From: Candidatus Pacebacteria bacterium CG_4_9_14_0_2_um_filter_40_15
GTDB taxonomy: Bacteria; Patescibacteriota; Microgenomatia; UBA1400; PJMF01
Direction of reading: 5' to 3'
Assembly (NCBI GenBank): GCA_002788675.1
Contig: PFRS01000005.1
Location: forward strand, 131,731 to 195,730
Length of the DNA: 64,000 nucleotides
In this document: piece by piece, positions 4,041 through 23,351 of the stretch
How positions within the stretch are numbered: the stretch's first letter is position 1
Layout: every line of letters begins with the position of its first letter
Made by a program: the position numbers and the translations under genes
The notes under the pieces: generated by a model
What the model saw: the letters and a program-made list of their open reading frames with translations, nothing else
Told to the model about the DNA's origin: nothing
Database searches by the model: none

Positions 4041-4106
4041 GTTTGTCAAGGGTTGCGAGTATGCGAGCAATTTACGAAGCCCTTGTCAAACGAGGGGCAA
4101 GGCCCC
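4041..4106. terminator. Two hairpins downstream of the minus-strand ABC operon: gtttgtcaaggg...cccttgtcaaac, then ggggc-aag-gcccc
   Basis: Inverted repeats read directly. Positioned 3' of the FtsX permease gene, which ends at 4232 on the minus strand. Confidence 0.3.
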
Positions 4107-4231
4107 TTAAATCAAGTGTTGGAAAAATAATAACGCTGGAAGTTTAGGCAAAGTGTACAAATAAGAAGATAATAAACTTCGAATTACTCTGAGAAACTCT
4201 CAAAGTAATTAAGTATTAAAAAAAATAGAAC

Positions 4232-7034: not shown

Positions 7035-7035
7035 C

Positions 7036-10000
7036 TTAGTTTTTTCCTAGTCTACTAAGGAAGCCAAAGGCTTCTTGTAAGTTGCTAATTACTAGGTTAA
7101 GGGCGTTTTCGGTGGTTTTTGGTGTAATGGTTACGGTGTCTATGGATTTAGCAATGTTCCCCGCGGTATCTTTAGACAACGCTCTTAAGTGATAGACCTT
7201 GCTTGGAGTAAGTCCTGAAATAATTACTAAATGATTGTAGGTAAGATTACTGTCTTCTTGAGTTTTTTGAGCATAAGTAACCCCCGTACCTTCACCAAAC
7301 TCGACTTGAGATGTTGCTGGTTCATCGGTGTTCCAAGAAACGATTAATTGAGCAGTGGATTCCTGTGCGGTACTCGCAGTTTGGGGAATAACTGAACCCT
7401 CCACAAAGAGTTTGCTAATTTGAGCAGGTCTGGTGTCGGTAGCAGTTGTAAGTCTTTGAGAGTCAGAAACTGCTTGGTTGCCAATTTTATCTCTGCCTTT
7501 GACCACCAAATTGTAGTTAGTTTGCGGAGCCAATCCTCGAATTATCATTTGATGCTCTCCTGAAATGAGATCAATATTAACCTCATCTTTAACTGCAGAC
7601 GGGTTGTTTTCTGGATAATAAGAAATAATAGAAGAAACTGCTGTGTTGGTGTTCCAAGTTATGAGCAGAGTTGATTGGGCAGTGTTAGACACTTGTTGGA
7701 TACGAACACCACTGATTTTAGGACGTGGTAGAGTTTCAAAATCTAGTACAGTTCCTTCATACTCTTCATCTTCACTATCAAAAGTATTTATTTTGTAGTA
7801 ATATTTCGTCCCATCTGCCAGACCTGTAAGCTCGGCAGTATAGGTAGTTTCGCTTGTTGAGGTAGACATCTCTTTAACTCCACCAAAATCAGAACTAGTT
7901 CCATAATAAACCTTAACTTTAGAGGCATCTTTGGAAGTAAACTCTATAATAGCGGTATCCAAACCTATATTTTTTGCGACAACATCTTTAACTGTTGGAG
8001 CAGGAGAGGTAGTAAACTCGTTTTCTTCACTGCTTCCAGTATTACCATCTTCATCTGTCCATTTGGCTTTGTAGTAATATTTTGTTCCTGGTTTCAGGCC
8101 AGTAAGATCAATTGAATGATTAGTGACTTGGTCGGAGTTACTTGGTTCAACATCATTGTACTTACCCCTACTAGTACCAAACTGAATTTTACTATCAGAA
8201 GTTCTAGAAGTTGACCAGCTTATTGTAGCTTTTTTGGTAGTAATATCACTTACCTCAGGCTCTGATTCTAAGCTTGGAGCAGATGTCCACTTGCCTGTTG
8301 GGGTAATAGTAACTGCATTTGTGCCACTGCTAGTGGCATTAGCGCCGTCTTTGGTATAAATCTTGTAATAATATTGTGCAGATGATGGAGTGGTATCTAC
8401 GTATGATATGCCACTAGTAGTTCCTACCTGCGAAAAAGTAGTGCCATCACTAGAGCGGTGTACTAAATAGGTTAGGTTTCCTGCTCCCTGATAGCTTGGG
8501 GCTGTCCAAGTAAGAGTTACATTCCACTGTTCTTGAGATTTAATAGAAGAGTCGGACGAAACTAGATTAGCAACATTATCTGGATCAGTAGAGTTAAGAG
8601 TAAACGTGCCGGTTATATAGTTAGATGGTGAATAATTAGGAGTACTCGCATCATCAATGGCCACTACATAAACTGTGTTAGTGCCTTTGTTTACATTTGG
8701 CAAAGCCCCAGCTGAAACTGTTGTACTGGTACCGTTATCAATATAGGTAGTGCTGTTACCTTGCAGAGTCGATAGGGTTGATGGTGGAGAAGTATTGACC
8801 ATGTAGTAATAATGTGTCACGGCTTGACCAGCACTTGGTGTTGCTTCTGGCCACGAGAGTGCAAAGCTGTTGGAGGTAGATGTTGATGGGGTGACTGTTA
8901 CATTCTCAAGCTCATCAAAAGCAGGAGCAGCCCCTCCATAAGACAAGTTACAGGTTCTATAAGTAGAAGCCGATGAAATATTACCAGAAGCATCAACTGA
9001 TCTGAAGTAGACAATATTATTTCCAGAAATAATTGAAGAACCATCTTGTTCCTGTGTGAGTGTCCGTGAGGTTTCACTAGTTGGCAGATAGTTATTTACA
9101 CCCAAGACCGATTCTGTGGTAGTTCCAAGCCAAGTTCCTGCAGTAGAGTTAATCTGATACTGCCAACCCAAAACGCCAGAATTATCATCTACTGTAGCGG
9201 CACTTCCAGATGTTGGCCAAGAAAAATTCATATCTGCCACATTAGAAAATGATCCAGAAGCACAAGAAATATATGATGTATTGGTTGGTGTAATGTTATC
9301 GAATCTAAATTGGAACTGCTCACTGGCACCTCCAAAAACTTGGCCTGCATTATCTATGGCTTTAATGTTTAAATAATAGGGATCACTAGAAGTAGTCAAC
9401 CATGGACTACCCTTGTAACTTGAGGTAGCAAAATCAATACTGGTGCTAGAGACTATAAACTGACAAGTAGTACCAGCGGTAGATAACGGGCTAGTTCCCA
9501 ACAATCCCTTACTTGTGGCAGGATTACCTGCACTATCAGTTCCTAAATACAAACAGTATCCTTTCAAACCACTCCCCCCAGCGGTATCAGCGCCAGCAGT
9601 CCAGGAAAAGTATGGTGACTCGTTCTTTGTCCAATCATTGGAGGACATACTTGTGCCGCCATTCGATCTAGTCATGGCAAGTGCTGAGGCGTTGGTATCT
9701 GGGGCAGTTGTATCGGTGGTTAAACCAATCGAGACATGAGGTAAATATGGCACATCAGCCCCACCTGAGGTGAATATTGCTTTGACAGAAATTTTGGTAG
9801 AAGTGATTGATAAAGCTTGCATTGCAGTTTGCGTTAACTGAGCAGGAGTATTCACATGGGTAGTAGTATTGCTAGCTGTTTGCCAATTTGCGCCGTCATA
9901 GTACTTCCAACTACCACCACTTTCACAAGTAGAACCATCATCGGTACAAAGTTGGTAGGAGATACTACTATTCGTGCCAGTTGTAGCATCCTGAGTACAA

Positions 10001-11613
10001 GTAGAACCAGAAAGAGTGCCTTCACAAAATGTATCCCAGCTGGCTACTAAAGCGTTAGAATAGGCAGTTGTTGTGTAAACACTATATTCACCTTGTTTGA
10101 TTAAGGAAAAGTCATCTAAAACAACAGTTTTGCCAGATTTAACACTCACACCATATTCGCGTGACTCATTAGCACCCACAACTGATCCAGACAATTTCCA
10201 CCAACCACTGCCCATATCGGTATAGGTAGTGCTCACAGTTGAGCCATTGTAGTAAAGTTCTGCAATGAGAGCATTAACAGTACCACCTTCACTACCACTG
10301 GTGTTATCGTACACAAAAACAGATAAATCATAGGTAGATGTATCACCTACATTGATAGATTGATACACCTTACCATCGGTGACAGAACCAATAGAAACGG
10401 CGTTTCCGCCGGCCGCTGAGCGTCCGGCATTAGAGGAGAAAGATTGCGAGATTGCTACAGGATCACTGGCGCAACGAAACCCGAGATTGCCGCCCTGACT
10501 TCCTGACGTATTGTACAAAAAGAGAGCGAAAGCCCCAGCATACGTCCCATTAACCCAATTACCGCCGCGGAGGAACGCGTTGTTCAACGCACCACCATAT
10601 ACTTGACCCATTCCATAGGTAGACAAATAACTGGCATTTGAAGGACCGTACAAATCACGTGCCCCACTAGCCAAATTAGCACTATTCCATTCAACCCAAC
10701 CGGCAGTAGTGTTAATAGCAGTTGATTGAATATCGCTATTCCAGTCCCAAACGTTACCAGACATATCCCAAATTTCACTACCATTGCTCAGGGTGTACTT
10801 AGCTTTGGTGTCACGTCCCGTGCCATATTCCGGGTCTGTGCCGTTGTAGCCAACGCTATCCAGCGTACCAACATTCCCCCTAAACATCCCACCCCCTGCA
10901 GCTACTGTTGAACCAACTGTGGCATTTGCCCAGTTGGCAGTTTGGCTTTCGGCATTTCTTGTAATCGTCATCCACTCTGCGTTGCTAATTAAATGGGTGC
11001 CATTAGGACACGAGGCAATAGCTTGAGTTTGGGTAATGTGGACAATTGGAGCACCATTGGCAGTAGAAACTACTTTCTCTTTATCAAAGCCTACAATATC
11101 TCGGTAATCCAAGCCTAAGCCAGAATCAGCTACGGCACTACAGGCTGCGGCAGTATCTCCGTCTCCATCTGTGGTACAGTCATATTTGGCTTCGTACTGC
11201 ATGGCTAAAAAATTATCTGTTGAAAAAGTAGCATTGCCAGGAATTTCCACCCAGCCGGTATCTGGCATTGCCAGAGTATTCCACGAAGTAACATCTGAAG
11301 CAAAACTGGGATTAGCAAATTCATTTGCTCCTACAGCTCCACCAGTTGGTTGAGCTCCACTGTTGTCTATAGTTGTTAAGCTGGCGGTGTAATCGCCAGC
11401 AGTAGAGGCATCTAGTGTCCAAACTTTGGCTGAGTCGTTAAGTGCAAATATTTGAGGTAGTTTTCCAGAGAGTGCGCCATACATACCTATAGCGAGTCCT
11501 GAGGCCATAAAAAAAATAGCTACCAAATTAAACTCGATTCTATTAAACTGAAACCGAGGTTCTAAAAGGTACTTGCTAATTTTTTTTATTATATTCACTA
11601 ACCTTACTTTCAT
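7036..11613 (-). CDS. Giant membrane-anchored surface protein and DGR target: N-terminal TM, FGE-sulfatase/C-type-lectin-fold domain ('WDMSGNVWDWNSD', 'NLGFRCAS') carrying the variable repeat, then ~1100 aa of Fn3/Ig-like repeats
   Basis: Hydrophobic segment at residues ~28-48. FGE/SUMF1-type motifs around residues 270-385. Recurring Fn3-like 'GTKYYYK' and 'YYYKI' motifs in the C-terminal half. The VR at 10462-10579 falls in this gene. Confidence 0.7.
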   Translation of the reverse strand: MKVRLVNIIKKISKYLLEPRFQFNRIEFNLVAIFFMASGLAIGMYGALSGKLPQIFALNDSAKVWTLDASTAGDYTASLTTIDNSGAQPTGGAVGANEFANPSFASDVTSWNTLAMPDTGWVEIPGNATFSTDNFLAMQYEAKYDCTTDGDGDTAAACSAVADSGLGLDYRDIVGFDKEKVVSTANGAPIVHITQTQAIASCPNGTHLISNAEWMTITRNAESQTANWANATVGSTVAAGGGMFRGNVGTLDSVGYNGTDPEYGTGRDTKAKYTLSNGSEIWDMSGNVWDWNSDIQSTAINTTAGWVEWNSANLASGARDLYGPSNASYLSTYGMGQVYGGALNNAFLRGGNWVNGTYAGAFALFLYNTSGSQGGNLGFRCASDPVAISQSFSSNAGRSAAGGNAVSIGSVTDGKVYQSINVGDTSTYDLSVFVYDNTSGSEGGTVNALIAELYYNGSTVSTTYTDMGSGWWKLSGSVVGANESREYGVSVKSGKTVVLDDFSLIKQGEYSVYTTTAYSNALVASWDTFCEGTLSGSTCTQDATTGTNSSISYQLCTDDGSTCESGGSWKYYDGANWQTASNTTTHVNTPAQLTQTAMQALSITSTKISVKAIFTSGGADVPYLPHVSIGLTTDTTAPDTNASALAMTRSNGGTSMSSNDWTKNESPYFSWTAGADTAGGSGLKGYCLYLGTDSAGNPATSKGLLGTSPLSTAGTTCQFIVSSTSIDFATSSYKGSPWLTTSSDPYYLNIKAIDNAGQVFGGASEQFQFRFDNITPTNTSYISCASGSFSNVADMNFSWPTSGSAATVDDNSGVLGWQYQINSTAGTWLGTTTESVLGVNNYLPTSETSRTLTQEQDGSSIISGNNIVYFRSVDASGNISSASTYRTCNLSYGGAAPAFDELENVTVTPSTSTSNSFALSWPEATPSAGQAVTHYYYMVNTSPPSTLSTLQGNSTTYIDNGTSTTVSAGALPNVNKGTNTVYVVAIDDASTPNYSPSNYITGTFTLNSTDPDNVANLVSSDSSIKSQEQWNVTLTWTAPSYQGAGNLTYLVHRSSDGTTFSQVGTTSGISYVDTTPSSAQYYYKIYTKDGANATSSGTNAVTITPTGKWTSAPSLESEPEVSDITTKKATISWSTSRTSDSKIQFGTSRGKYNDVEPSNSDQVTNHSIDLTGLKPGTKYYYKAKWTDEDGNTGSSEENEFTTSPAPTVKDVVAKNIGLDTAIIEFTSKDASKVKVYYGTSSDFGGVKEMSTSTSETTYTAELTGLADGTKYYYKINTFDSEDEEYEGTVLDFETLPRPKISGVRIQQVSNTAQSTLLITWNTNTAVSSIISYYPENNPSAVKDEVNIDLISGEHQMIIRGLAPQTNYNLVVKGRDKIGNQAVSDSQRLTTATDTRPAQISKLFVEGSVIPQTASTAQESTAQLIVSWNTDEPATSQVEFGEGTGVTYAQKTQEDSNLTYNHLVIISGLTPSKVYHLRALSKDTAGNIAKSIDTVTITPKTTENALNLVISNLQEAFGFLSRLGKN
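10398..10411 (-). promoter_or_regulatory. GC hairpin cggcg-tttc-cgccg (GAAA tetraloop on the coding strand) about 50 nt 3' of the VR; possible DGR homing hairpin/cruciform
   Basis: Read directly. DGR VRs are typically followed by a GC-rich stem with a 4-nt loop. Confidence 0.25.
10462..10579 (-). repeat. DGR variable repeat (VR), 118 bp, inside the target gene
   Basis: Aligns base-for-base with 15455-15572. Of 17 mismatches, 16 fall where the TR has A on the coding (minus) strand. The 21-nt 3' end 'gggtttcgttgcgccagtgat' is identical in both copies (IMH-like). Confidence 0.8.
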
Positions 11614-11776
11614 ACACGCACAAAAAGGCGCTTAACAAAAACGTTCCTTACTTAATAATACACATATTTTGAGCAAATGTTAATGCTAATTACAAGATGC
11701 AAGAAAGAGCTAGCTGAGTGCGATAAACAGAACTCATATAAAGAGAAGCATAAAGAATTATTTTCTGGCTATTGGA

Positions 11777-11809
11777 CAAAAAAATAGGAGAAGTAGATAA
11801 GTTTTCTCC
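11777..11809 (-). terminator. Rho-independent terminator after abiEii (minus-strand hairpin ggagaa...ttctcc followed by a T-run)
   Basis: Plus strand reads 'acaaaaaaataggagaagtagataagttttctcc'. On the minus strand this is a hairpin followed by 'tattttttt'. Confidence 0.45.
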
Positions 11810-11840
11810 TAGAACTATAAAGAGTTATGTTACGACAAAA

Positions 11841-12623
11841 TCATGAACTTTTTCTATCAATTGAACTCAATAACTTTTCAAGGTAGGTTTTTACATACTC
11901 AAATAGGCTTCCAAGTTTCTCGCGCTCACCTATTGGTACAAAGGGTCTCAAGTCTTTGATAAACTCATCCTTAGAAAAATCTTTCAACCTAGATATTAAT
12001 CTATCCACTTTAAAAACTTCATCATAATATTTCAACTTATTTTGAATCAAATCCAAATCAAATTTTGCACCAAGCTCTAGTAAGATCCAAAGATCATATA
12101 TATCTCGATGCTTTTCTCTCCTGAGTATTGCTCTGATTTTTTCTGCCAATATTTCGTTCTTACTCAAAGAGTTAACAAAACTCTGCACAATAACAGGGTA
12201 TTCTGATTCAATAATGCTTTTTGTAGGCTCTAAAACATTCTCCCTCATTGAAAAATCTAATTTTACGAAAACCGGATTTTTCAAAGATTGAACATTTGCT
12301 GTTAAAAGATATGTTTTTCCAGTTATGGTTTTTCTTTCCTTAAAGGTAAATGGATATTGATTTTCAATTTTACTGAAAAACTTATTGATTAGTTTTATAA
12401 ATACACCTTCATCAACTTGAACAGTAAAATCTAAATCCTCTGAAAATCTTTGTCCACCATAAAGTAAACGAATAGCAGTACCTCCCTTGAAGTAAATATC
12501 TCTTGAGAAACCTTCTTCATATAATTCTTTCAGAAATGTGATCTGAACAAATTCACGAGCCACAATTGATTCATTAATTTTATACTTTTTGGATAACTGA
12601 TTTAGCTGTGTTTGATTTATCAT
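11841..12623 (-). CDS. abiEii: AbiEii/AbiGii-family nucleotidyltransferase toxin (type IV TA)
   Basis: 'YFKGGTAIRLLYGGQRFSEDLDF' is the hallmark KGGTA nucleotidyltransferase motif of AbiEii/DUF1814. Confidence 0.6.
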   Translation of the reverse strand: MINQTQLNQLSKKYKINESIVAREFVQITFLKELYEEGFSRDIYFKGGTAIRLLYGGQRFSEDLDFTVQVDEGVFIKLINKFFSKIENQYPFTFKERKTITGKTYLLTANVQSLKNPVFVKLDFSMRENVLEPTKSIIESEYPVIVQSFVNSLSKNEILAEKIRAILRREKHRDIYDLWILLELGAKFDLDLIQNKLKYYDEVFKVDRLISRLKDFSKDEFIKDLRPFVPIGEREKLGSLFEYVKTYLEKLLSSIDRKSS

Positions 12624-12660
12624 TTTAGACCCTTAATTTTGGAGTGATAACGACATAAAT

Positions 12661-13308
12661 TTAGCTGGTATAAAAAGTGCAAGGCCATAAATATTTATCC
12701 GCTAATTCCTGAATACTTTTTGACAATTTATCTGGTAGTAGTTTAAAATATTCTTGGAATTTTGCCTTATCAATCGCAGAATAATCCATTTCATCTAAGT
12801 ATTGCTTCGTCTTTAAACCTTTGGCAATCATATACAGCTGATCTAACAAAGCTTTTTCTGGTAGAGCTATTAATGCATCTTCTTCTTTAATATAACCAGT
12901 AAATAAACTCGTACTTATTTGAGAATAGGTATACATTTTTTCTAAAACTTCTTTTTTTTGGGTAGATTTTGTTGTCACTGAGGTGATCTCTACGGGAAAT
13001 TGACTTAAAATTCCATAGTAATTAAGAGCTGTCTCAAATGAGATATATGAAGGCGAATATAAAAATTGAGCAATTTCAAAATCTGAAACTTCTGCATTTC
13101 CCAACAAATATTTGCCTTTTTCAAGAGAAATCAGTATTTTTTCATCAAGAAATCTTTTAATAAGATCCTCAAGTGTTCTTTTCGAGTCAATTTCAAGTAA
13201 GTTTTGAAGATCTTTGGTTAAAAAGGCTTTTTTACCCGAATCATTGATTGCATTTAAATATTTATACGTTGACATATACCACGGATTATACGTGGTTAAG
13301 CATATCAT
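12661..13308 (-). CDS. abiEi: AbiEi-family antitoxin/transcriptional regulator
   Basis: 'YISFETALNYYGILSQFP' matches the conserved AbiEi C-domain motif (Y-x-S-x-E-x-AL-x-x-xG). Lies directly upstream of abiEii. Confidence 0.5.
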   Translation of the reverse strand: MICLTTYNPWYMSTYKYLNAINDSGKKAFLTKDLQNLLEIDSKRTLEDLIKRFLDEKILISLEKGKYLLGNAEVSDFEIAQFLYSPSYISFETALNYYGILSQFPVEITSVTTKSTQKKEVLEKMYTYSQISTSLFTGYIKEEDALIALPEKALLDQLYMIAKGLKTKQYLDEMDYSAIDKAKFQEYFKLLPDKLSKSIQELADKYLWPCTFYTS

Positions 13309-14089
13309 GTCAAGGGTGAATCTTTTCTCAATTAAGATAACACAAAATGCCTAAACACTATTTATTTTCCGTAAGTAAATAATAGAGTAAGTAGGCATTG
13401 GCATGTTGCAAATGACCTTTAATTGATACTTTTGATTGTGTTAGCTCAAACTCGCTCAATTTCCCTTGTAAAAATTTCTTTTGTTTTTTCCTATACTTGC
13501 GTTGCATGTGCCTCAAAGTATCACCTCTCACCAAAACGTGATCATAAAAAATTCTATACCCCACAAACGGCACTCCATCAGTGACATTTTTAATTGTGTT
13601 TTTTTTGGGATGCAAACTCAAGCCCAACTTTCTATTTAAAAATTTCTCAATATCTTTATTTAACTGCTTCAGCTTCTTTTTATCTGGATGAATAATCAAA
13701 AAATCATCCATGTATCGAGCATACCAACGCTGTTTGAGGGTATGTTTTACGTATTGGTCAAGCTCATTTAGATAGATATTGGCAAAAAGTTGACTGGTTA
13801 GGTTTCCTATTGGTAAGCCTTTTCTTTCCCACTCCAATATAGGTGCATTTTCCTGATGGTTATTTTGATCACTGTTATTGAATTCAAAAAGTGAAAGTTG
13901 TTCGGGAATAGTTTTTTTAAAACTATTTTGGTGGATATGACTTGAAATATTCACCATATCTGCTTTTACTGAGTGAGTAACCACAATTCTTCTAAGAAGC
14001 TCGTTGGTTCTTGGGCAAGTTATTGATTTTTGCAGGATTTCTAGCAAAGTATCCCAGTGAATGTTTTGAAAATACTTATGAATATCACA

Positions 14090-14837
14090 GGGTCTTGTGA
14101 CGTTTAGCATACGTTAGTGTGTTAATATGGTTGTAAGATCAATGAAAAATAGATATTGCAATCGATCACGACTTAGTGAGCACAAATTTAGACAACTTTT
14201 ACAATGTTTTTGTGACGATTTTGACACAGTTTTAACAGCAAAAAGTGTTGGAATTTCTCGTGAGCATGTAACCAAATATTTTGGTGCAATTCGTTTTAGA
14301 ATTGTCGAATTAAGTCAGTTAGAGGGTAAATTTTCAGGAGAAGTTGAGGTAGATGAAAGTTACTTTGGAGCAAAAAGAATTCGAGGTAAACGAGGACGTG
14401 GTGCCAGAGGAAAAATACCCGTTGTTGGGGTATTAAAAAGAGGTGGAAAGGTTTACACAAAGGTAGTAAAAAACTGTTCGAGAGAACAAATACTGCCAAT
14501 TTTGAAAGGTAAAATACTTGAGGAATCAACCGTGTTTACAGATGGTTGGAAAAGCTATCATGGATTGATTTATCAAGGATTTCAGCACTATAGAATCTAT
14601 CATTCAAAGAATGAATTTGCTCGAGGAAAAAACCACATTAATGGTATTGAAAGTTTTTGGAGTTTTTGCAAAAGACGTATGGCAAAACAAAATGGTGTGA
14701 GAAAAGATAAATTTCTGCTACACTTAAAGGAATCTGAGTTTAGATGGAATCATAGAAATGAAATGTATAAAGTACTTTTGGACGACTTAAAATTTAACCC
14801 ATTGACGCTCTAAACGTCACAAGACCCTATCACATTG
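14090..14837 (+). mobile_element. IS1595-family insertion sequence (~748 bp) with 18-bp terminal inverted repeats GGGTCTTGTGACGTTTAG and flanking 7-bp direct repeat TATCACA (14083-14089 and 14838-14844)
   Basis: TIRs and TSD read directly at both junctions. The transposase ORF lies inside. Confidence 0.7.
14127..14813 (+). CDS. IS1595-family (ISXO2-like) DDE transposase
   Basis: 'EVDESYFGAKRIRGKRGRGARGKIPVVGVLKRGGKVYTKVV' is the characteristic IS1595 transposase core (EVDE-Y-GG-K ... G-K). Confidence 0.7.
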   Translation: MVVRSMKNRYCNRSRLSEHKFRQLLQCFCDDFDTVLTAKSVGISREHVTKYFGAIRFRIVELSQLEGKFSGEVEVDESYFGAKRIRGKRGRGARGKIPVVGVLKRGGKVYTKVVKNCSREQILPILKGKILEESTVFTDGWKSYHGLIYQGFQHYRIYHSKNEFARGKNHINGIESFWSFCKRRMAKQNGVRKDKFLLHLKESEFRWNHRNEMYKVLLDDLKFNPLTL

Positions 14838-15245
14838 CAACACATAGAGTTCTCTTTCTTTTCCATATATACATCTAGCAGCCATGAGAAATTTTTTGAT
14901 TCTGCTTGCTCCAAAGTGTGTTCCCTTATATTTGCGACAAGCATACGAATCAAAAATAAACTTTTTTTCAAATATTGGCTCAATTTGTGCCACAAGGGAG
15001 TGCTGAATTATCCTATCTTTAAATGCAGGCGCAGAAATTCTCCTTGTTTTGGGCTCAAAAATTGTAAAATTGGTGTAGGGCTGAGGATAATATTCACCAG
15101 ATAAAAGAAGCTGTCTTAACTTTAATATATTGCTCTCAATAAAGTATTCATACTCCGCAACACTAATTCTGTCTCTTTTGCCTTTTCTTGCTTTGTAAAA
15201 TGATTTGAGTAACATCTCAAAACTAGAAATTTTATCAAACATCAT

Positions 15246-15454
15246 CTTACATAGTATCCTTATAAGCCCACTTTCCTCATAACTAAAAACATATGTTGCT
15301 AGCTATGAGGATACAGGCTTTTTGTTTTCCCTCAAGAAATTTATATGCTTGAAAGAAAGAGAAAATCTTGTGATCATAATGATCCAGGACATATATCCTT
15401 AAACATATGCCACTCATCTGGCGAAGCCAAATCTTACATGGACTTAATATTAGT
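15246..15454 (-). other. DGR spacer region between TR and RT, containing an imperfect hairpin (cctcata...tatgagg)
   Basis: Its position corresponds to the structured TR-RT spacer of known DGR RNAs. Confidence 0.3.
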
Positions 15455-15572
15455 ATCACTGGCGCAACGAAACCCGATATTGTTGTTCTGATTTCCTGTT
15501 GTATTGTTCAAATTGAGAGCGAAAGGTCCAGCATTCGTTCCATTATTCCAATTACCGCCGCGGAGGAACGCG
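15455..15572 (-). repeat. DGR template repeat (TR), 118 bp
   Basis: Non-coding copy of the VR. In the VR frame it reads AFLRGGNWNNGTNAGPFALNLNNTTGNQNNNIGFRCASD, with AAY (Asn) codons exactly at the positions that differ in the VR. Confidence 0.8.
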
Positions 15573-15605
15573 CACTGCGTTTGTATGATTTTCCCTTTAT
15601 AGTAA

Positions 15606-15947
15606 CTATACCACTTTCATCCAAGCTCGTAGCATTCGAGCAATCTCATTCATTTTTTCTGCACCAAATGCATATTGTTTGATACTTTTAAATTTAAGAT
15701 CTTTAGTCAGTCGTAATAATATTCGCAAAGTATCTAGGTCATTAGAAATTAATTGTTGTAATTTTTGTCTTTCTAACCCTTTTAGACTATTGGCCTTTGA
15801 AACTGTTATAACTAAAGCAATTACCCTTTCTTCAATTGCTTTGCCTAAAACCATTCTATGACTTTTAGGGATACGGTTTACTAAAGGATAAAACCAAAGT
15901 GCTTGGTCATACGTTTTTTGGAAAATAAGTAATTTTTCACACATCAT
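15606..15947 (-). CDS. avd: Avd-like accessory variability determinant (four-helix-bundle family)
   Basis: 113 aa. 'IFQKTYDQALWFYPLVNRIPKSHRMVLGKAIEERV' fits the Avd / 23S-IVS four-helix-bundle family. Sits immediately 5' of the TR on the same strand. Confidence 0.55.
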   Translation of the reverse strand: MMCEKLLIFQKTYDQALWFYPLVNRIPKSHRMVLGKAIEERVIALVITVSKANSLKGLERQKLQQLISNDLDTLRILLRLTKDLKFKSIKQYAFGAEKMNEIARMLRAWMKVV

Positions 15948-16078
15948 AAATCTGTTTGTATCACCACTTTATAACTCTGGGGAAATACCTTCATGTTTAT
16001 TATTACGTAGTTATTATCTTGAAACAAGAAGAGTTGTATTCTTTTTTTGAAAATAATTCATATGACAAGTAATATCCA

Positions 16079-16106
16079 TTGACTTCTCGAGAACTGTTGA
16101 TATAAT
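16079..16106 (+). promoter_or_regulatory. Near-consensus sigma70-type promoter (TTGACT, 16-bp spacer, TATAAT) upstream of the T4SS-like operon
   Basis: Read directly: 'ttgacttctcgagaactgttgatataat'. Confidence 0.4.
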
Positions 16107-16219
16107 TTGATACAATTTAAATCAAAAGTAAATTGTTATAACAAGAGCTGCCCAACTAGTGAGGTGGCTTTTTTTGTAACACCTGCCCTGGATACTTTTT
16201 TAACGAAAGGGTCGTTGTT

Positions 16220-16552
16220 ATGAGAAAACTCGTATTTCTTCAAAGTATATTTCTTACCTCTTTAGTTGTTGCAACTCCAGCATTTGCACAAACTGCCGAA
16301 GTTGGACAAATTCAATCATTCATCCAAAGTGTGATTCAAGTTATGGTCACGCTCTCTGGCTTTATTGCAGCAGGTTTCATAGTCTGGGGTGGCGTTGGCT
16401 ACATTACTAGTTCAGGAAACCCTGAATCACTCGAAAAGTCTAAAAAAACAATTTTATACTCAGCCATTGGCCTCACCCTTGTGCTTGGAGCATTCGTTCT
16501 TTCCAATATGGTTAGCCAATTAGCATCCACTGCTTTTGGTGCAGGAATGTAA
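16220..16552 (+). CDS. VirB2/TrbC-like pilin-type small membrane protein (signal peptide + two hydrophobic helices)
   Basis: Signal peptide 'ATPAFAQT', then two hydrophobic stretches. First gene of the T4SS-like operon. Confidence 0.4.
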   Translation: MRKLVFLQSIFLTSLVVATPAFAQTAEVGQIQSFIQSVIQVMVTLSGFIAAGFIVWGGVGYITSSGNPESLEKSKKTILYSAIGLTLVLGAFVLSNMVSQLASTAFGAGM

Positions 16553-16567
16553 GCGAAGGGATATGTA

Positions 16568-17869
16568 TTGATGCGAAAGGTACTCACCACCATTGGAATT
16601 ATTGCCACCTCATTCTTGTTTTTTAGTACTCCTGTTTTTGCACAAACTACCAATCCTGACATCCTCGAATACACCAACAACACTTTACAAATCATCACTC
16701 TTATTTCAACCGCAGCCGCGGTGTTTTTTTTGGTCAAAGCAGGGTATCTCTATATTACTTCATCAGGGAAACCTGAAGCTCTAGAATCTGCAAAGAACAC
16801 CATTAGAAACGCCATAATCGGCTTAACCTTGGTGTTGGCAGCAAATATAGTGACATCTGTCTTTCAGCACGCATTAAACTCTCAGACGACATCAGGAACT
16901 GGCACACCTATTGACGTTGTCAGTATTGAAACTGCTGAACCTTCTGAAGGCTTAACTCAGGTGCTTATTGATGCCATTGGTAGTTTTATTCAAAACATCG
17001 TGGAAAGCTCAACTGAGCCAATTGTGAATGGGGTGTTGGGCTACCTCACCACTACACCTACACTTTTGGATAATGAAGTAGTACGTAACTTCTGGTTTGT
17101 CACTGTTGGAATTGTTGACGCCTTGTTTGTCTTAGTGGTAGCTCTCATGGGACTGCAAGTTATGAGTGCTAGTACTTTTGGATTTGAAGAAGTTGAGATT
17201 AAACAGTTGTTGCCAAGGTTAGGACTGAGTTTTTTAGCTGCAAATATTTCACTCTTTTTGGCCGATTATGCCATTATCACTTGCAACGCCTTGGTTGAGG
17301 CTATACTAGACTCCACTGGAGGACTAAATCACGCTTGGATTCAAGCAGCATTTAATCCGACTGCAGTAATTTCTGGAACCACGCCACTCATCATTTTGAT
17401 TTTCATGGTTATGTTCTTGGTTGTCTCAATCGTGCTGTTACTCATGTATATCAGTCGCTTAATTATTATTTCCCTGGGGGCAGTTCTTTCGCCATTTATC
17501 TTCTTACTCTCAGCACTCCCAAAGTTTTCAGACCTCGCCTCAATTGCAATCAAGACATATCTTGTCAGCGTGTTTATCGTGTTTGTGCATGTGGTGATAA
17601 TTCAACTCGCTAGTTCGTTTTTGACCCTGCCTGAGCACAGTGAAAACTCACTTATTTCTATTGCCGTTGGCATTGGACTGTTTATCACCCTCCTCAAAAC
17701 TCCAAATCTGATGATGCAAATGGTCATGTACACCGCTAACTCTGGATCATTGAAAAAATTAGGAAACCAAATTATAAATGTGATGACAACAGATAACGCT
17801 TCAGTTGCAAGCAGAGCTCAGGCTCAAGACTCTGCATCCAAACTATCAAGAAAGGCAATAAAACTATGA
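16568..17869 (+). CDS. VirB6/TrbL-like polytopic membrane protein whose N-terminal ~100 aa is a paralog of the preceding pilin-like protein
   Basis: N-terminus 'STPVFAQTT...GYLYITSSGKPEALESAKNTIRNAIIGLTLVLAANIV' parallels the upstream ORF 'ATPAFAQTA...GYITSSGNPESLEKSKKTILYSAIGLTLVLGAFVL'. At least six further TM segments follow. Confidence 0.45.
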   Translation: MMRKVLTTIGIIATSFLFFSTPVFAQTTNPDILEYTNNTLQIITLISTAAAVFFLVKAGYLYITSSGKPEALESAKNTIRNAIIGLTLVLAANIVTSVFQHALNSQTTSGTGTPIDVVSIETAEPSEGLTQVLIDAIGSFIQNIVESSTEPIVNGVLGYLTTTPTLLDNEVVRNFWFVTVGIVDALFVLVVALMGLQVMSASTFGFEEVEIKQLLPRLGLSFLAANISLFLADYAIITCNALVEAILDSTGGLNHAWIQAAFNPTAVISGTTPLIILIFMVMFLVVSIVLLLMYISRLIIISLGAVLSPFIFLLSALPKFSDLASIAIKTYLVSVFIVFVHVVIIQLASSFLTLPEHSENSLISIAVGIGLFITLLKTPNLMMQMVMYTANSGSLKKLGNQIINVMTTDNASVASRAQAQDSASKLSRKAIKL

Positions 17870-18372
17870 GAAGCCGAGTCATACCCGCTCAAATAACCAC
17901 TGTAGAAGACAAAATTGCAGGTGATTTTAGTCTGACGCAAATTATGTTGTTACTGTTACCAGTCTTAATTGCTTCGTTTATTTACGCAATCCTTCCACCA
18001 AGCATGAGCTTTGTACTCTACAAACTAATCTTGGCGAGCATTTTTGCCATTGCAAGCATCACTCTGGCAATTAGAGTTAAGGGCAGAATTATTGCAAGTT
18101 GGCTTGTGGTCTTGATCCGATACAACATTAGGCCAAAATACTATGTATTCAACAAAAACTCTGCTACAAATCGAGAAATTATTCAACCTGAGGTTGAGAT
18201 TATCACTGTTGAAGAAAAAGAAACTAAAAGCGCTGATCTAAAAAGTATTCAGAACCTTGATATCAAAGATATTCTCAAACTTCGACACATTCTTGATACA
18301 ACAGATTTCAATCTAACCTACCGCTCCGGCAAGAAAGGAGGACTCAATGTGGCCTTTGAAAAAGTCTCTTAG
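17866..18372 (+). CDS. Small two-TM membrane protein (VirB3-like position)
   Basis: Hydrophobic N-terminal half; located between the VirB6-like and VirB4-like genes. Confidence 0.3.
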   Translation: MRSRVIPAQITTVEDKIAGDFSLTQIMLLLLPVLIASFIYAILPPSMSFVLYKLILASIFAIASITLAIRVKGRIIASWLVVLIRYNIRPKYYVFNKNSATNREIIQPEVEIITVEEKETKSADLKSIQNLDIKDILKLRHILDTTDFNLTYRSGKKGGLNVAFEKVS

Positions 18373-18967
18373 TAAAGCAAGTTCTCGCAATCAAATAGCT
18401 ATAAAAGAAGTGCGTGATGGCATTTTGGTTCTGCCAAATAATGAGCATCGTCTGGTAATCGAAACTTCTTCTGTGAACTTTGAACTTAAAAGTGAAGCTG
18501 AGCAGGACATACTCATAGATAGCTTTCAAACTTTTTTAAACTCACTCCCTTCTCAATTACAAATCCTCATTCGCATTCGAGAAGTAGACATTGATCTATA
18601 CGTGGATTCTATTGAGTTGCTAAAACAAAGTGAAGATGAAAAGAAGTACCTGGAACAAATTGATGATTACACACAATTTATCCGTCAACTCGTATCTGGT
18701 AACAAAATTCTTTCTCGCAAGTTTTACATTGTCTTACCTTACAAACCAGATTCCAAGAGCGATGTATTTGAATTAGCTCAAGCACAGTTAACCCTCACTC
18801 AAGATATGGTAATTAAATCTTTAGAAAAACTAGGTATGAAAGCTAGAAAACTAGATAGCCTGGAAGTCCTGCATCTTTTTTACAGCTTCTACAACAAAAA
18901 TCAACTCAAAACTCAAGAATTAACCAGTACTACTATGAAAGCAATATTGCAGCACAACTATGTTTAA
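18347..18967 (+). CDS. Hypothetical protein; possibly the detached N-terminal domain of VirB4
   Basis: 206 aa. Ends in an ATGTTTAA overlap with the VirB4 ATPase ORF; 206+604 aa approximates a full-length VirB4. Confidence 0.3.
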   Translation: MWPLKKSLSKASSRNQIAIKEVRDGILVLPNNEHRLVIETSSVNFELKSEAEQDILIDSFQTFLNSLPSQLQILIRIREVDIDLYVDSIELLKQSEDEKKYLEQIDDYTQFIRQLVSGNKILSRKFYIVLPYKPDSKSDVFELAQAQLTLTQDMVIKSLEKLGMKARKLDSLEVLHLFYSFYNKNQLKTQELTSTTMKAILQHNYV

Positions 18968-20774
18968 TACCGTTCAAACTCATTACCATAACTTACAAAA
19001 ATGGAAACGAAAAAAAGTCCGCAAGTTTCAAGCAACCCAAGAAAAGAAACGCCGTGAGCGACTCTCACTGCAGTTTAGTTTTGGTGAGCAAGATCAAGTT
19101 GATTTGATTTCCTATTCAGGACTCATGGAAGAATCAACCTACCTACAGATTGGTGATACGTATGTGAGAACTTTGTTTATTTCTGGTTACCCATATGTTG
19201 CCAATGTTGGATGGCTGAATATGCTGATTAACTTTAACCAAGATCTGGACATTTCATACCACATTGAGCAAGTTGATCCACTCATGGCCTTACCTAAATT
19301 AAATCGAAAAATTACTGAGCTTGAGTCAACTAAACGTAGTATGCTCAAGGCCGGAAAAGTAATTGGCTCTGAAATTACCGATCCACTTGAATCTGCTATG
19401 GAGCTCAAAGATAAAATTCAGCGAGGACAAGAGAAACTTTTTCAGATATCAATTTACATGACTCTGAGTGCAAGTAGTCTGGAGGAGCTAAACAAATCTA
19501 CACAAGTGCTAGAGACCATCATGTCCTCCAGGCTGTTTTACATTAAAAACGCCACTTTCCAGCAACTAGAGGACTTACAATCAACCCTTCCTAGAGGTGA
19601 AAACCAACTTGCACAAAAAAGAAATTTAGATAGTTCAAGTGCTGCACTTACTTTTCCGTTTGTGTCGTCTGAACTAGTGCAGGAATCTGGTATTTTATAT
19701 GGCATTAATAAATCAAATAACTCACTAGTCATTGTTGATCGGTTTTCACTTAATAACGCCAACTCAATTATTTTTGCTCAGTCTGGAAGTGGAAAAAGCT
19801 ACACAGCAAAGGTTGAGATCTTGCGCCAACTAATGCAACAAACAAAAGTGATTGTGATTGACCCTGAGCGCGAATATAAGCAACTGGCCAAATCTATTGG
19901 AGGTACATATATCCGACTTTCAGCAACTTCTAAAGAGAAAATCAACCCTTTTGATTTTTCTCTTAAATCTGTGACTGGTGAAAATGGACTAGCAGAACAT
20001 ATCCAAGACCTAACTGAAATTATTTCATTGATGGCAGGTTCTTTGAGTGACGAGGAACGAGCGGTGGTAGACAAGGCATTGATCGAAACCTACAAATCCT
20101 TTGGGATTAGTATGCGTAAGCGCAACTACGAGGTTGATCAAAAATTTCCTTTACTCAAGGACTTCTACGTAGTACTCAAAAAAATGAAGCAAAAAGAGTT
20201 GTGCCACAGGCTAGATAAGTTTGTGTCTGGATCACTCTCAAGCGTATTTGATTCGCAAACTAATGTTGATCTTTCCAATCGACTAGTGGTATTTGACATC
20301 AAAGATCTAGATGAATCTCTCAGGCAAATTATGATCTTAACCACTGCCAACTTTGTGCACTCTCAGGTAAAAAGTGATCCGCAAAAACGCATCTTGGTTA
20401 TTGATGAAGCGTGGTTGCTACTGCAACACGAAGAAAGTGCGCGGTTTTTGGCAGGTCTAGTACGGCGTGCCCGCAAGCATTACTTGGGTGTCACCTTAAT
20501 TTCTCAGCAAGCTAATGACTTTTTGAATCAAGAGTACGGCAGAGCCATTGCCTCACAGTCGTCACTACGAATCCTGATGAAACAAGATACTACATCTATT
20601 AAAAAAGTGGTGCAAGAATTTAACTTAAGTGAGTACGAACAACAGTTTTTACTAACCTGCGACCGAGGTGAAGCCTTGATCATTGCCGATCAAAACCATG
20701 TTGCGGTCAAAATTGTTGCCTCTGAAAAAGAACATCCAATGCTAACCACTGATCCGAAAGATTTATATCTATAG
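18960..20774 (+). CDS. virB4: VirB4/TrbE/CagE-family T4SS ATPase
   Basis: Walker A 'AQSGSGKSYTAK' and Walker B 'LVIDEAWLLL' (DEAW is typical of VirB4). Confidence 0.7.
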   Translation: MFNTVQTHYHNLQKWKRKKVRKFQATQEKKRRERLSLQFSFGEQDQVDLISYSGLMEESTYLQIGDTYVRTLFISGYPYVANVGWLNMLINFNQDLDISYHIEQVDPLMALPKLNRKITELESTKRSMLKAGKVIGSEITDPLESAMELKDKIQRGQEKLFQISIYMTLSASSLEELNKSTQVLETIMSSRLFYIKNATFQQLEDLQSTLPRGENQLAQKRNLDSSSAALTFPFVSSELVQESGILYGINKSNNSLVIVDRFSLNNANSIIFAQSGSGKSYTAKVEILRQLMQQTKVIVIDPEREYKQLAKSIGGTYIRLSATSKEKINPFDFSLKSVTGENGLAEHIQDLTEIISLMAGSLSDEERAVVDKALIETYKSFGISMRKRNYEVDQKFPLLKDFYVVLKKMKQKELCHRLDKFVSGSLSSVFDSQTNVDLSNRLVVFDIKDLDESLRQIMILTTANFVHSQVKSDPQKRILVIDEAWLLLQHEESARFLAGLVRRARKHYLGVTLISQQANDFLNQEYGRAIASQSSLRILMKQDTTSIKKVVQEFNLSEYEQQFLLTCDRGEALIIADQNHVAVKIVASEKEHPMLTTDPKDLYL

Positions 20775-21392
20775 ATGCATGCCATACTTACCACCCATAC
20801 CATCTGGTCATTTAGAAGAGAACTGCAGTTAGTAGCTTTTTCATTTCTGGTTTTGTTGTCTCTGCCAGTGATTGCAGTCATCATCCTGATGCACACCGGC
20901 ATCAATATTGTTTCTGATGCGTTGATTGAAGTGGTAGCAGAAACTCAAACCATTCTTATAAAAAATCCGGCTGATGGGTCTGTTGTAAAAGAAGTTTCTA
21001 AAAAAGTAGCTTGGCCTGTACAAGGAGTTACTACACTCGAGTTTGCGGGCTCAAGCAAATACCAGAAATTCCACGCAGGAATTGATATTGCAAATCCCCA
21101 TGGAAAAGTTGGTGACAAAATTTCACCATTTATGGATGGTACGGTAACCTATGCTGGTGAAATATTCTGGGGGTATGGCAAGCATGTAATTATTGATCAT
21201 GGTGACAATATTAGTTCTGTGTATGCACATCTCAATCGGATTAGTGTTTATGAAGGTCAGGAAGTGAAGGTGGCTGATACAATTGGGGAAATGGGTAGCA
21301 CTGGCTGGTCTACAGGGCCACATTTACATTTTGAGATTAGGGTGTATGGGGTGCCGGTGAATCCTAAAACAATTTTACAGAACACAAACTAA
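20775..21392 (+). CDS. M23-family peptidoglycan endopeptidase (T4SS-associated cell-wall hydrolase)
   Basis: 'HAGIDIANPHG', 'GKHVIIDHGDNISSVYAHL', 'GSTGWSTGPHLHFEI' are LytM/M23 motifs. Confidence 0.75.
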   Translation: MHAILTTHTIWSFRRELQLVAFSFLVLLSLPVIAVIILMHTGINIVSDALIEVVAETQTILIKNPADGSVVKEVSKKVAWPVQGVTTLEFAGSSKYQKFHAGIDIANPHGKVGDKISPFMDGTVTYAGEIFWGYGKHVIIDHGDNISSVYAHLNRISVYEGQEVKVADTIGEMGSTGWSTGPHLHFEIRVYGVPVNPKTILQNTN

Positions 21393-21415
21393 CCATATAT
21401 TGATATAATTTTAGT

Positions 21416-23350: not shown

Positions 23351-23351
23351 T

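What the first reader, a model, noticed from the sequence alone, without database searches (positions are those of the whole stretch)
13358..15245. The DGR reverse transcriptase is split by a miniature IS1595-family element inserted in RT motif 2
Terminal inverted repeats GGGTCTTGTGACGTTTAG (14090-14107 and, reverse-complemented, 14820-14837) bracket an ISXO2-like transposase ORF. A 7-bp direct repeat TATCACA flanks the element on both sides. Removing the element and one TSD copy rejoins '...LYVLQCD' with 'IHKYFQNIHWDTLL...' in frame. This reconstitutes RT motif 2.

The DGR is therefore probably inactivated and the VR 'frozen', unless the IS excises or the RT is complemented in trans. It is a natural snapshot of IS-mediated silencing of a hypermutation system.
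Basis: seen in the sequence. Interest (0 to 1): 0.7.

Follow-up and report, generated by a model that had tools for sequence, protein, structure and literature searches.

The report
Insertion sequence splits a DGR reverse transcriptase
A 738-bp jumping gene has landed in the active-site codon region of the reverse transcriptase that drives a targeted hypermutation system in an uncultured Pacebacteria (CPR) bacterium; intact copies of the same gene survive in sister strains, so this is a real but not unprecedented natural knock-out.

Summary
A 738-bp IS1595-family element lies at 14090-14827. It has perfect 18-bp terminal inverted repeats and a 7-bp target duplication, TATCACA. It splits a diversity-generating retroelement (DGR) reverse transcriptase (RT) on the minus strand.

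In-silico excision gives one 380-aa RT ORF. Five public contigs carry the uninterrupted allele with a single TGTGATA at the empty site. One of them is 99.9% identical to the window over 21 kb, and its RT protein is 100% identical.

The insertion is at the catalytic Asp of motif A (Bordetella bRT D138), not "motif 2". The element is a complete autonomous IS of IS1016-group type. It is high-copy in a related genome assembly and always makes 7-bp duplications.

Avd, the template repeat (TR), the variable repeat (VR) and the 1525-aa target gene are all intact.

The "frozen VR" idea is only partly supported. All IS-bearing contigs share one VR, and one near-identical intact-RT contig has a different VR. 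But two intact-RT contigs carry the same VR as the window, so that VR allele predates the insertion.

A transposon-interrupted DGR RT coexisting with intact alleles is already published for Thiohalocapsa. This is a new member of a known kind, of modest interest.

The parts
14090..14827 (+). Complete 738-bp IS1595-family (IS1016-group-like) insertion sequence
   Evidence: Bounded by perfect 18-bp repeats and a 7-bp duplication. Absent from five contigs with an exact empty site. Relatives at 75-89% nt identity have the same architecture.
14090..14107 (+). Left terminal inverted repeat GGGTCTTGTGACGTTTAG
   Evidence: In the relatives L002-L006 both arms read GGGTCTTGTAACCTTTAG, so the two arms changed in concert.
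14810..14827 (+). Right terminal inverted repeat CTAAACGTCACAAGACCC, which contains the transposase stop codon TAA at 14811-14813
14083..14089 (.). Target-site duplication, left copy TATCACA
   Evidence: On the RT strand it reads TGTGATA: the Cys and Asp codons plus the first base of the Ile codon.
14828..14834 (.). Target-site duplication, right copy TATCACA
   Evidence: A single copy is present in the empty sites of L001, L010, L043, L044 and L045.
14127..14813 (+). Transposase gene (228 aa), on the strand opposite to the RT
   Evidence: Pfam DDE_Tnp_IS1595 4.4e-30. NCBIfam NF033547 163 bits against a cutoff of 75. D76, D139 and K182 are invariant and E175 nearly invariant among 10 homologues. 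The exact protein is annotated 'IS1595 family transposase' in Pacebacteria MAGs.
14828..15245 (-). RT N-terminal fragment (aa 1-139). The ORF as it stands runs on to 14817 and ends ...QCD-RVL-stop inside the right repeat.
   Evidence: In NCBI the 142-aa fragment is annotated 'reverse transcriptase' (P0242).
13358..14089 (-). RT C-terminal fragment, carrying motif B IGNLTSQ, the YMDD motif and the thumb. An ATG at 14110 inside the IS gives a 250-aa ORF starting MLNVTRP-CD-IHKYF...
   Evidence: In NCBI it is annotated 'hypothetical protein' (P0241). No Shine-Dalgarno-like sequence lies before that ATG. No promoter-like site reads out of the IS on the RT (-) strand towards this fragment.
15452..15572 (-). 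DGR template repeat (TR), between avd and the RT
15606..15947 (-). Avd accessory protein gene (113 aa)
   Evidence: Pfam bAvd 1.7e-17, 64 bits against a cutoff of 40. NCBIfam DivGenRetAVD 73.1 bits, just under its cutoff of 80.
10459..10579 (-). Variable repeat (VR) inside the target gene, encoding ...RGGNWVNGTYAGAFALFLYNTSGSQGGNLGFRCASD...
   Evidence: 85% identical to the TR. Of 18 mismatches, 17 are at TR adenines and one is a C-to-G change.
7036..11613 (-). DGR target gene (1525 aa): an FGE-sulfatase / C-type-lectin-like domain carrying the VR, followed by FN3 repeats. The ORF is intact.
   Evidence: Pfam FGE-sulfatase aa 184-382, 26.6 bits against a cutoff of 23.3, plus fn3 and Pur_ac_phosph_N. 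The protein is identical to that of L001.
11841..13308 (-). AbiEi-like and AbiEii toxin-antitoxin pair lying between the RT and the target. It is a strain-variable cassette, not part of the core DGR.
   Evidence: AbiEii 1.3e-31. AbiEi 5e-13, below its cutoff. The cassette is absent in L043 and replaced by a DUF3800 gene in L010.
10408..10428 (-). G+C-rich hairpin about 30 nt downstream of the VR, possibly a homing-enhancing stem-loop
   Evidence: The fold z-score for the whole 111-nt stretch is -2.1. This is suggestive only.

Best explanation
A single transposition event placed an autonomous 738-bp IS1595-family insertion sequence into the RT gene of a chromosomal DGR in a Candidatus Pacebacteria (CPR) population. 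The IS is of IS1016-group type: it has no zinc finger, 18-bp repeats and a 7-bp duplication.

The staggered cut fell on TGTGATA, the Cys-Asp-Ile codons. This separates the fingers and the first catalytic Asp from motif B, the YMDD motif and the thumb. The N-terminal ORF stops three codons into the IS. The C-terminal part has no evident promoter or ribosome-binding site. The cis-encoded RT is therefore almost certainly non-functional, and cDNA synthesis from the still-intact TR should stop (inferred, not shown).

Avd, TR, VR and the target gene are undamaged. The repeats and duplication are perfect, and the RT halves are 100% identical in protein to the intact allele. The event is therefore recent.

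The IS-bearing haplotype is the one most often assembled. It coexists in the same sample series with an uninterrupted sister haplotype. The VR it carries was already present before the insertion.
For: **Anatomy of the element**
- Repeats, duplication and in-frame rejoin.
- Transposase family.
- Mobility and a consistent 7-bp duplication at four other insertion sites (one directly flanking a 75%-identical copy, three paired across contig ends of a related genome assembly).

**The host gene is a DGR RT**
- DGR identity.
- The best solved-structure match is Bordetella bRT at 2.5e-49, and the insertion-site Asp aligns with catalytic D138.

**Empty sites**
- L001 is 99.84-99.93% identical to the window over 21 kb and has a single TGTGATA.
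- L010, L043, L044 and L045 also have exact empty sites.

**The insertion is real, not an assembly artefact**
- The IS-bearing allele appears in independent assemblies: L011-L013 are 100% identical to the window and L046 is 99.76% identical (its 7 differences lie outside the IS and the RT).
- The C-terminal fragment is listed in 84 blocks of the collection.
- The exact fragment was read on 23 contigs.
-.

**One insertion lineage**
- A linked synonymous SNP at 14063 is C in 5 of 5 IS-bearing contigs and T in the 4 close IS-free contigs.

**The DGR was recently active in this species**
- The L008/L048 VR differs from the TR at 23 positions, all TR adenines.
- L045's VR differs from the window's at three adenine sites.
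Against: - Loss of RT activity is inferred from the position of the break and has not been measured.
- A second RT elsewhere in the roughly 1.2-Mb genome could complement in trans. Only this 64-kb window was searched, and it holds no other RT.
- The IS-bearing contigs are clonal (100% identical), so their shared VR is not independent evidence of freezing.
- Two intact-RT contigs, L001 and L043, carry the very same VR.
- Assemblies are consensus sequences and hide within-sample VR diversity.
Confidence: 0.85

Rival explanations
1. VR stasis has nothing to do with the IS. The DGR was already quiescent, or this VR variant is held by selection, and the IS landed in a gene that was no longer in use.
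For: - The same VR occurs with an intact RT in L001.
- It also occurs in L043, which is about 1% diverged, lacks the AbiE cassette and has a different TR with T at positions 45 and 73.
- The window's VR has T at position 73, matching that other TR, and a non-adenine C-to-G change at position 46.
- All 10 SNPs between L001 and the window in the target gene are synonymous.
Against: - L045 has an intact RT, is 99.9% identical to the window, and has a VR that differs at adenine sites. Its contig ends within the VR, as expected for a heterogeneous locus.
- L008 and L048 show purely adenine-directed rewriting at about 1% divergence.
- The intact RT allele has no amino-acid change, so there is no sign of decay before the insertion.
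Confidence: 0.3
2. The insertion is a reversible switch. Precise excision of the IS regenerates the RT, and the IS-free contigs are revertants.
For: - Both alleles coexist in the same sample series: Ga0210011 and Ga0210036 are IS-free, Ga0210019 and Ga0210041 are IS-bearing.
- Removing the IS and one duplication copy restores the gene perfectly.
Against: - The four close IS-free contigs carry T at 14063, 26 bp from the site, whereas all five IS-bearing contigs carry C.
- L001 also differs from the window by 23 other SNPs over 21 kb.
- From general knowledge, precise excision of DDE-type IS elements is rare.
Confidence: 0.04
3. The split RT still works, either as two polypeptides that reassemble or through complementation by another RT in the genome.
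For: - Both fragments are intact ORFs.
- Because of the duplication, each fragment keeps the Cys-Asp.
- An ATG in the IS opens the C-terminal ORF.
Against: - There is no Shine-Dalgarno-like sequence before that ATG and no promoter-like site on the RT (-) strand inside the IS.
- The break lies inside the palm active site.
- The window holds no second RT.
- The intactness of the fragments is explained by the recency of the insertion.
Confidence: 0.03
4. The junctions are an assembly artefact caused by a multi-copy repeat.
For: The IS family is high-copy, and many contigs end in it.
Against: - A perfect 7-bp duplication flanks the element and the two sides rejoin exactly in frame.
- The same structure appears in independent JGI, ENA and NCBI assemblies that span the whole IS, for example L011 on a 212-kb contig and L046.
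Confidence: 0.01

Closest known systems
Thiohalocapsa PB-PSB1 DGR 3: strains with an intact RT coexisting with variants interrupted by a transposon (Doré et al. 2024, PMC10907252)
   Same: In both, a DGR RT gene is interrupted by a transposable element, and intact and interrupted alleles coexist in a natural population.
   Different: - The host is different: a CPR Pacebacteria bacterium rather than a purple sulfur bacterium.
- The IS family is different.
- Here the insertion is mapped to the base, at the catalytic Asp codon.
- The interrupted allele is the commonly assembled one.
- Here only this one DGR locus was examined (no second RT, TR or VR in the 64-kb window), and nothing points to the set of duplicated, degenerate loci seen in Thiohalocapsa.
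Trichodesmium erythraeum IMS101 DGR: RT pseudogenised by a stop codon, with an intact allele in wild metagenomes (PMC4143802)
   Same: In both, a natural loss-of-function RT allele sits beside an intact TR and VRs, and the intact allele was recovered from environmental data.
   Different: The inactivation there is a point mutation in a culture. Here it is an IS insertion in an environmental population.
IS1016 group of the IS1595 family (Siguier et al. 2009; Feschotte 2004; summarised in PMC8101967)
   Same: - A single DDE_Tnp_IS1595 transposase with no N-terminal zinc finger.
- Short repeats that begin with GGG.
- About 0.74 kb long, with a 7-bp duplication.
   Different: - No direct sequence comparison with IS1016 itself was possible.
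- The group's size range (700-745 bp) and duplication range (7-9 bp) are recalled from ISfinder tables, not verified here.
- The host range here is CPR bacteria.
Bordetella phage BPP-1 DGR (bRT / Avd / TR / mtd)
   Same: - RT homology at 2.5e-49 to PDB 8ub7.
- The catalytic Asp, the IGxxxSQ motif and the YMDD motif.
- Avd, adenine-specific TR-VR differences, and a C-type-lectin-type variable domain.
   Different: - This DGR is chromosomal and lies beside a T4SS-like cluster.
- The target is downstream of the RT, with an optional toxin-antitoxin cassette between them.
- The VR is in the N-terminal third of a 1525-aa protein.
- The RT has an extra segment of about 50 aa between motifs A and B.

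Membership tests
IS1595 family (insertion sequences) | Transposase with the DDE_Tnp_IS1595 catalytic domain | tested here: met
   Pfam PF12762: 105 bits against a cutoff of 27, covering the full profile. NCBIfam NF033547: 163 bits against a cutoff of 75. D76, D139, E175 and K182 are conserved.
IS1595 family (insertion sequences) | Terminal inverted repeats bounding a single-ORF element, flanked by a target-site duplication | tested here: met
   The repeats are 18/18 perfect and the duplication is 7 bp. The same ends appear in relatives, with concerted changes in both arms. Exact empty sites exist.
IS1595 family (insertion sequences) | Evidence of mobility: multiple copies at different sites | tested here: met
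   A scan of species-representative genomes for the 18-mer repeat found 29 loci, 23 of them in the MAG AM_0466; all but two of that MAG's hits lie within about 100 bases of a contig end. The exceptions are a full 738-bp copy. Three 7-bp duplication pairs were reconstructed across contig ends. L007 has the duplication TTACAAA.
IS1016 group within IS1595 | No N-terminal Zn_Tnp_IS1595 zinc finger (PMC8101967) | tested here: met
   Only PF12762 was hit at E <= 0.01. The N-terminal 68 aa contain no paired CxxC motifs (sequence).
IS1016 group within IS1595 | Length about 700-745 bp and a duplication of 7-9 bp (recalled from ISfinder, not verified here) | tested here: met
   The copies are 738 bp, or 734 bp in L007. 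The duplication is 7 bp in 5 of 5 scorable insertions. The reference ranges rest on memory.
IS1016 group within IS1595 | Transposase clusters phylogenetically with IS1016-group transposases | not tested
   No ISfinder reference sequences were available in the tools.
Diversity-generating retroelement | RT of the DGR clade, with the [I/L/V]GxxxSQ motif B and YxDD | tested here: met
   The best solved-structure hit is bRT (8ub7) at 2.5e-49. IGNLTSQ and YMDD are present in the C-terminal fragment. The gene is interrupted in this window.
Diversity-generating retroelement | A TR/VR pair whose differences fall at TR adenines | tested here: met
   17 of 18 mismatches are at adenines. The L008/L048 VR shows 23 of 23 at adenines.
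Diversity-generating retroelement | Accessory protein Avd next to the TR and RT | tested here: met
   Pfam bAvd: 64.3 bits against a cutoff of 40. NCBIfam DivGenRetAVD: 73.1 bits, slightly under its cutoff of 80.
Diversity-generating retroelement | VR lies in a C-type-lectin / FGE-sulfatase-fold ligand-binding domain of the target | tested here: met
   FGE-sulfatase spans aa 184-382 at 26.6 bits against a cutoff of 23.3. The VR encodes the C-terminal end of that domain and ends in GFRCASD.
Diversity-generating retroelement | IMH (the homing-initiation sequence at the VR 3' end) with a downstream hairpin at the VR 3' end | tested here: inconclusive
   The 3' ends of TR and VR are identical and G+C-rich (GGGTTTCGTTGCGCCAGTGAT). 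A G+C-rich hairpin lies about 30 nt downstream, in a 111-nt stretch with fold z-score -2.1. Neither is a functional test.
Diversity-generating retroelement | Current mutagenic homing activity | not testable with these tools
   This needs reads, long reads or an experiment. Contig-level comparison is mixed.

The most novel reading that the evidence does not exclude
The IS knock-out of the RT may have been selected for rather than being neutral damage. By switching off hypermutation it would lock in a favourable variant of the 1525-aa surface protein. That would explain why the IS-bearing haplotype is the one assembled in most samples, while the intact haplotype, which still varies at the VR, persists at low frequency. 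Under this reading, IS insertion acts as an evolutionary off-switch for a DGR at the population level.
Probability: 0.12. Interest if true: 0.55.

Novelty: new member of a known kind. Interest (0 to 1): 0.3.

Why it matters
DGR surveys detect elements through an intact RT, so IS-split RTs are missed or mis-annotated. In the public MAGs that carry this locus, one fragment is labelled "reverse transcriptase", the other "hypothetical protein", and the IS "IS1595 family transposase".

This locus offers a matched natural pair. The RT-intact and RT-disrupted haplotypes are at least 99.8% identical over 21 kb, and their RT and target proteins are identical. Both come from one series of related metagenome samples. 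The MAG names suggest a groundwater site (Crystal Geyser), which is my inference.

Read-level analysis of those samples could measure how fast a VR diversifies with and without its RT in an uncultivable CPR bacterium. It would also show whether DGR loss is tolerated or favoured.

The phenomenon itself, a mobile element inactivating a DGR RT, is already documented. The value is as a clean test case rather than a new principle.

Tried and rejected
- **Rfam and tRNA scans.** The Rfam gathering scan and the tRNA scan of the whole window found nothing. There is no ribozyme or intron-like RNA that would make the interruption a splicing element.
- **Literature on the IS1016 group.** I looked for a table of size and duplication ranges. 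The FEMS review (PMC7190074) is not held, and the searches returned only indirect descriptions. Those ranges therefore rest on memory.
- **Metagenome scan for VR variants.** I scanned with the TR pattern, masking its adenines and the few non-adenine positions seen to vary, to collect all VR variants. It returned only 3 loci, too few for a population test. Two were TRs and one repeated the L008-type VR.
- **RT state of the alternative-VR strain.** Both contigs, L008 and L048, end just downstream of or at the RT 3' end.
- **Duplications in L002 and L003.** The two flanks of these IS copies do not match. The contigs are probably chimeric across a repeat, so I did not use them.
- **Expression signals for the C-terminal fragment.** I found no promoter-like site on the RT (-) strand inside the IS and no ribosome-binding site. 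The scan covers sigma-70-type consensus only.
- **The C-to-G mismatch as proof of long stasis.** I rejected this reading because another strain's VR also has two non-adenine differences from its own TR.
Full report
**1. The observation**

The sequence shows GGGTCTTGTGACGTTTAG at 14090-14107. Its exact reverse complement is at 14810-14827, and each 18-mer occurs once in the window.

TATCACA abuts both ends, at 14083-14089 and 14828-14834. The pair is the longest inverted repeat in the surrounding 10 kb. A specific 18-mer would meet its reverse complement in 64 kb by chance with a probability of about 1e-6 (my estimate).

Between the arms lies one ORF, 14127-14813 on the + strand, 228 aa. Its stop codon is inside the right repeat.

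**2. The element**

The ORF matches Pfam DDE_Tnp_IS1595 ("ISXO2-like") at 4.4e-30 over the full profile. It matches NCBIfam transpos_IS1595 at 163 bits against a cutoff of 75. No zinc-finger domain is found. According to PMC8101967, that distinguishes the IS1016 group from the rest of the IS1595 family. In an alignment with nine homologues of 61-93% identity, D76, D139 and K182 are invariant and E175 nearly so, and the window's protein has all four.

Relatives fetched from public contigs have the same build.
- Five copies at 88.8-88.9% nt identity are also 738 bp. Both of their arms read GGGTCTTGTAACCTTTAG, so the two ends changed together.
- A 75%-identical copy of 734 bp is flanked by a 7-bp duplication, TTACAAA.

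A scan of species-representative genomes for the 18-mer found 29 loci.
- 23 of the 29 loci are in one genome assembly (MAG), "bacterium AM_0466". All but two of that MAG's hits lie within about 100 bases of a contig end; the two exceptions bound a full 738-bp copy (L041).
- Five more loci are in a MAG labelled Pseudomonadales, and one is in a Methylovirgula MAG.
- Pairing the flanks across contig ends reconstructs three more insertion sites, each with a 7-bp duplication: AAAAACA, TAGTGAA and AAATCTA.

The element is therefore a complete, autonomous, mobile IS, not a transposase-less miniature element. Its size is what I recall ISfinder giving for the IS1016 group (700-745 bp, duplication 7-9 bp). 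I could not retrieve that table.

**3. The interrupted gene**

On the minus strand the order is:
- Avd (15947-15606; bAvd 1.7e-17)
- a 121-nt TR (15572-15452)
- the split RT (15245-13358)
- an AbiEi-like/AbiEii pair (13308-11841)
- a 1525-aa protein (11613-7036) with an FGE-sulfatase/C-type-lectin-like domain followed by FN3 repeats

The VR (10579-10459) is 85% identical to the TR. Of 18 differences, 17 are at TR adenines. The window holds no second RT, TR, VR or IS copy.

Deleting 14090-14834 gives one 380-aa ORF. That ORF matches RVT_1 at 9e-23. Its best match among solved structures is the Bordetella phage DGR RT, bRT (8ub7), at 2.5e-49. It carries the IGNLTSQ and YMDD motifs.

In that alignment the Asp of "LQCD|IHKYF" pairs with bRT residue 138. 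The bRT structure paper names D138, D215 and D216 as the catalytic aspartates. The insertion is therefore in motif A (RT domain 3), not motif 2.

Because the duplication is TGT-GAT-A, both fragments keep Cys-Asp. The N-terminal ORF ends ...QCD-RVL-stop in the right repeat. An ATG in the left end opens MLNVTRP-CD-IHKYF.... No Shine-Dalgarno-like sequence precedes that ATG. The consensus scan finds no promoter-like site on the RT (-) strand inside the IS that could read out into the fragment.

**4. Uninterrupted alleles exist**

A search with the rejoined RT found P0001 at 100% identity and coverage. Its contig, ENA ERZ27293371 k141_807966 (41.5 kb, locus L001), is colinear with the window. L001 positions 1-10415 match window 25242-14828 at 99.93%. 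Positions 10409-21140 match window 14089-3358 at 99.84%. The 7-bp overlap is the single TGTGATA.

Four more contigs have the same exact empty site:
- L044, 99.5-99.9% identical
- L045, 99.9% identical
- L043, about 99% identical
- L010, 91-98% identical

**5. The IS-bearing allele and its host**

An exact-sequence look-up shows the two RT fragments and the transposase annotated in several "Candidatus Pacebacteria bacterium CG_..." MAGs. They appear there as "reverse transcriptase", "hypothetical protein" and "IS1595 family transposase". The C-terminal fragment is listed in 84 blocks of the collection, on contigs of up to 1.19 Mb.

Three such loci (L011-L013) are 100% identical to the window. 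A fourth (L046) is 99.76% identical and spans the whole IS. Independent assemblies from JGI, ENA and NCBI rule out a chimeric join.

A synonymous SNP 26 bp from the insertion (window 14063) is C in all five IS-bearing sequences. It is T in the four close IS-free contigs and C in the distant L010. This fits one insertion in one lineage. It argues against the IS-free contigs being excision revertants.

**6. Is the VR "frozen"?**

Every IS-bearing sequence has the same VR, but these sequences are clonal, so that says little.

Two observations count against a simple causal link.
- The intact-RT contig L001 has the identical VR.
- So does L043, which is about 1% diverged, lacks the AbiE pair and has a TR with T instead of A at positions 45 and 73.

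That VR allele is therefore older than the IS insertion and has persisted next to an intact RT.

Three observations favour the idea.
- L045 has an intact RT and is 99.9% identical to the window. Its VR begins GGTAGTTGGAATA where the window has GGTAATTGGGTTA. The three differences are all at TR adenines, and the contig ends right there, as expected where a population is heterogeneous.
- L008 and L048 are 98.9% identical to the window and of unknown RT state. Their VR differs from the TR at 23 positions, all adenines. The DGR has therefore been active in the recent history of the species.
- L010, with an intact RT, has yet another VR.

Without reads the question stays open. Inactivation of the cis RT is a strong inference from where the break lies. 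The resulting freeze is plausible but not demonstrated.

**7. Comparison with what is known**

Natural loss of DGR RT function is documented in two systems.
- The RT of Trichodesmium IMS101 carries a premature stop, while wild metagenomes hold the intact allele (PMC4143802).

The present case is therefore a new example of a known phenomenon, in a CPR host and with an IS1016-type element. It stands out for the base-level precision, the hit on the catalytic Asp codon, and the availability of both alleles at 99.9% identity.

**8. Verdict**

It is wrong on the motif number, loose on "miniature", and over-confident on the freeze.
- Novelty: a new member of a known kind.
- Interest: modest, mainly as a ready-made natural experiment.

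Noticed in passing
window 11841-13308 (-); L043 2064-2306; L010 2297-2968: The space between the RT and the DGR target is a strain-variable slot. It holds an AbiEi-like/AbiEii toxin-antitoxin pair here and in L001, L044 and L045. It holds nothing in L043 and a DUF3800 gene in L010.
   Followed up: partly
window 15452-15572 (TR) against L043 and L010 TRs; VR 10459-10579: The TR itself is polymorphic. TR positions 45 and 73 are A in the window, L001, L044 and L045, but T in L043, L010 and L047. The window's VR has T at position 73, matching the other TR type. At position 46 it has a non-adenine C-to-G change (Pro to Ala), whereas two other VR variants keep Pro. This suggests the VR was last written from an older TR version, or that the TR mutated afterwards.
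   Followed up: partly
window 16220-24221 (+): Directly upstream of avd, on the other strand, lies a T4SS-like cluster: a TrbC/pilin-like gene, a T4SS_pilin gene, a PrgI-like gene, a TraC-like gene, a VirB4-type ATPase (DUF87/AAA_10) and an M23 peptidase. It is followed by a KAP-family NTPase and a QatB-like gene, which suggests a defence system (Pfam labels). The DGR may sit in a mobile or defence island.
   Followed up: no
window 7036-11613 (-) against L001: All 10 SNPs between the window and L001 in the 4.6-kb target gene are synonymous. The 24 SNPs over 21 kb are clustered (16182-16297, 10243-10330, 7327-7375, 5003-5018), which looks like short recombination tracts or strain mixing in the assemblies.
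   Followed up: partly
window 10459-10579 within ORF 7036-11613 (-): The VR encodes aa 345-385 of a 1525-aa protein, in the N-terminal third. More than 1100 aa of FN3-type repeats lie downstream. From general knowledge, DGR targets usually carry the VR at the C-terminus. Here the VR sits at the end of an internal C-type-lectin-like domain.
   Followed up: no
L008 (start) and L048 (start); window about 13025-13429: Both contigs that carry the strongly different VR variant break at nearly the same place, at the RT 3' end or within the AbiEi-like gene. The RT state of that strain is therefore unknown. The shared break suggests a structural difference there.
   Followed up: no
L018, L021, L029, L032, L033 (CAZSJW01, 'uncultured Pseudomonadales bacterium SRP286056_co2_78'): A MAG labelled Pseudomonadales has several contig ends with the identical 18-bp repeat. 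An RT homologue at 60% identity (P0005) is also labelled Pseudomonadales. This probably reflects a taxonomic mislabel or contaminated bin rather than real cross-phylum spread.
   Followed up: no
RT aa 173-221 (window about 13840-13990, -): Compared with Bordetella bRT, this RT has an extra segment of about 50 aa between motif A and motif B (VVTHSVKADMVNISS...ENAPILEWERK). Close homologues have it too, but with variable sequence.
   Followed up: no
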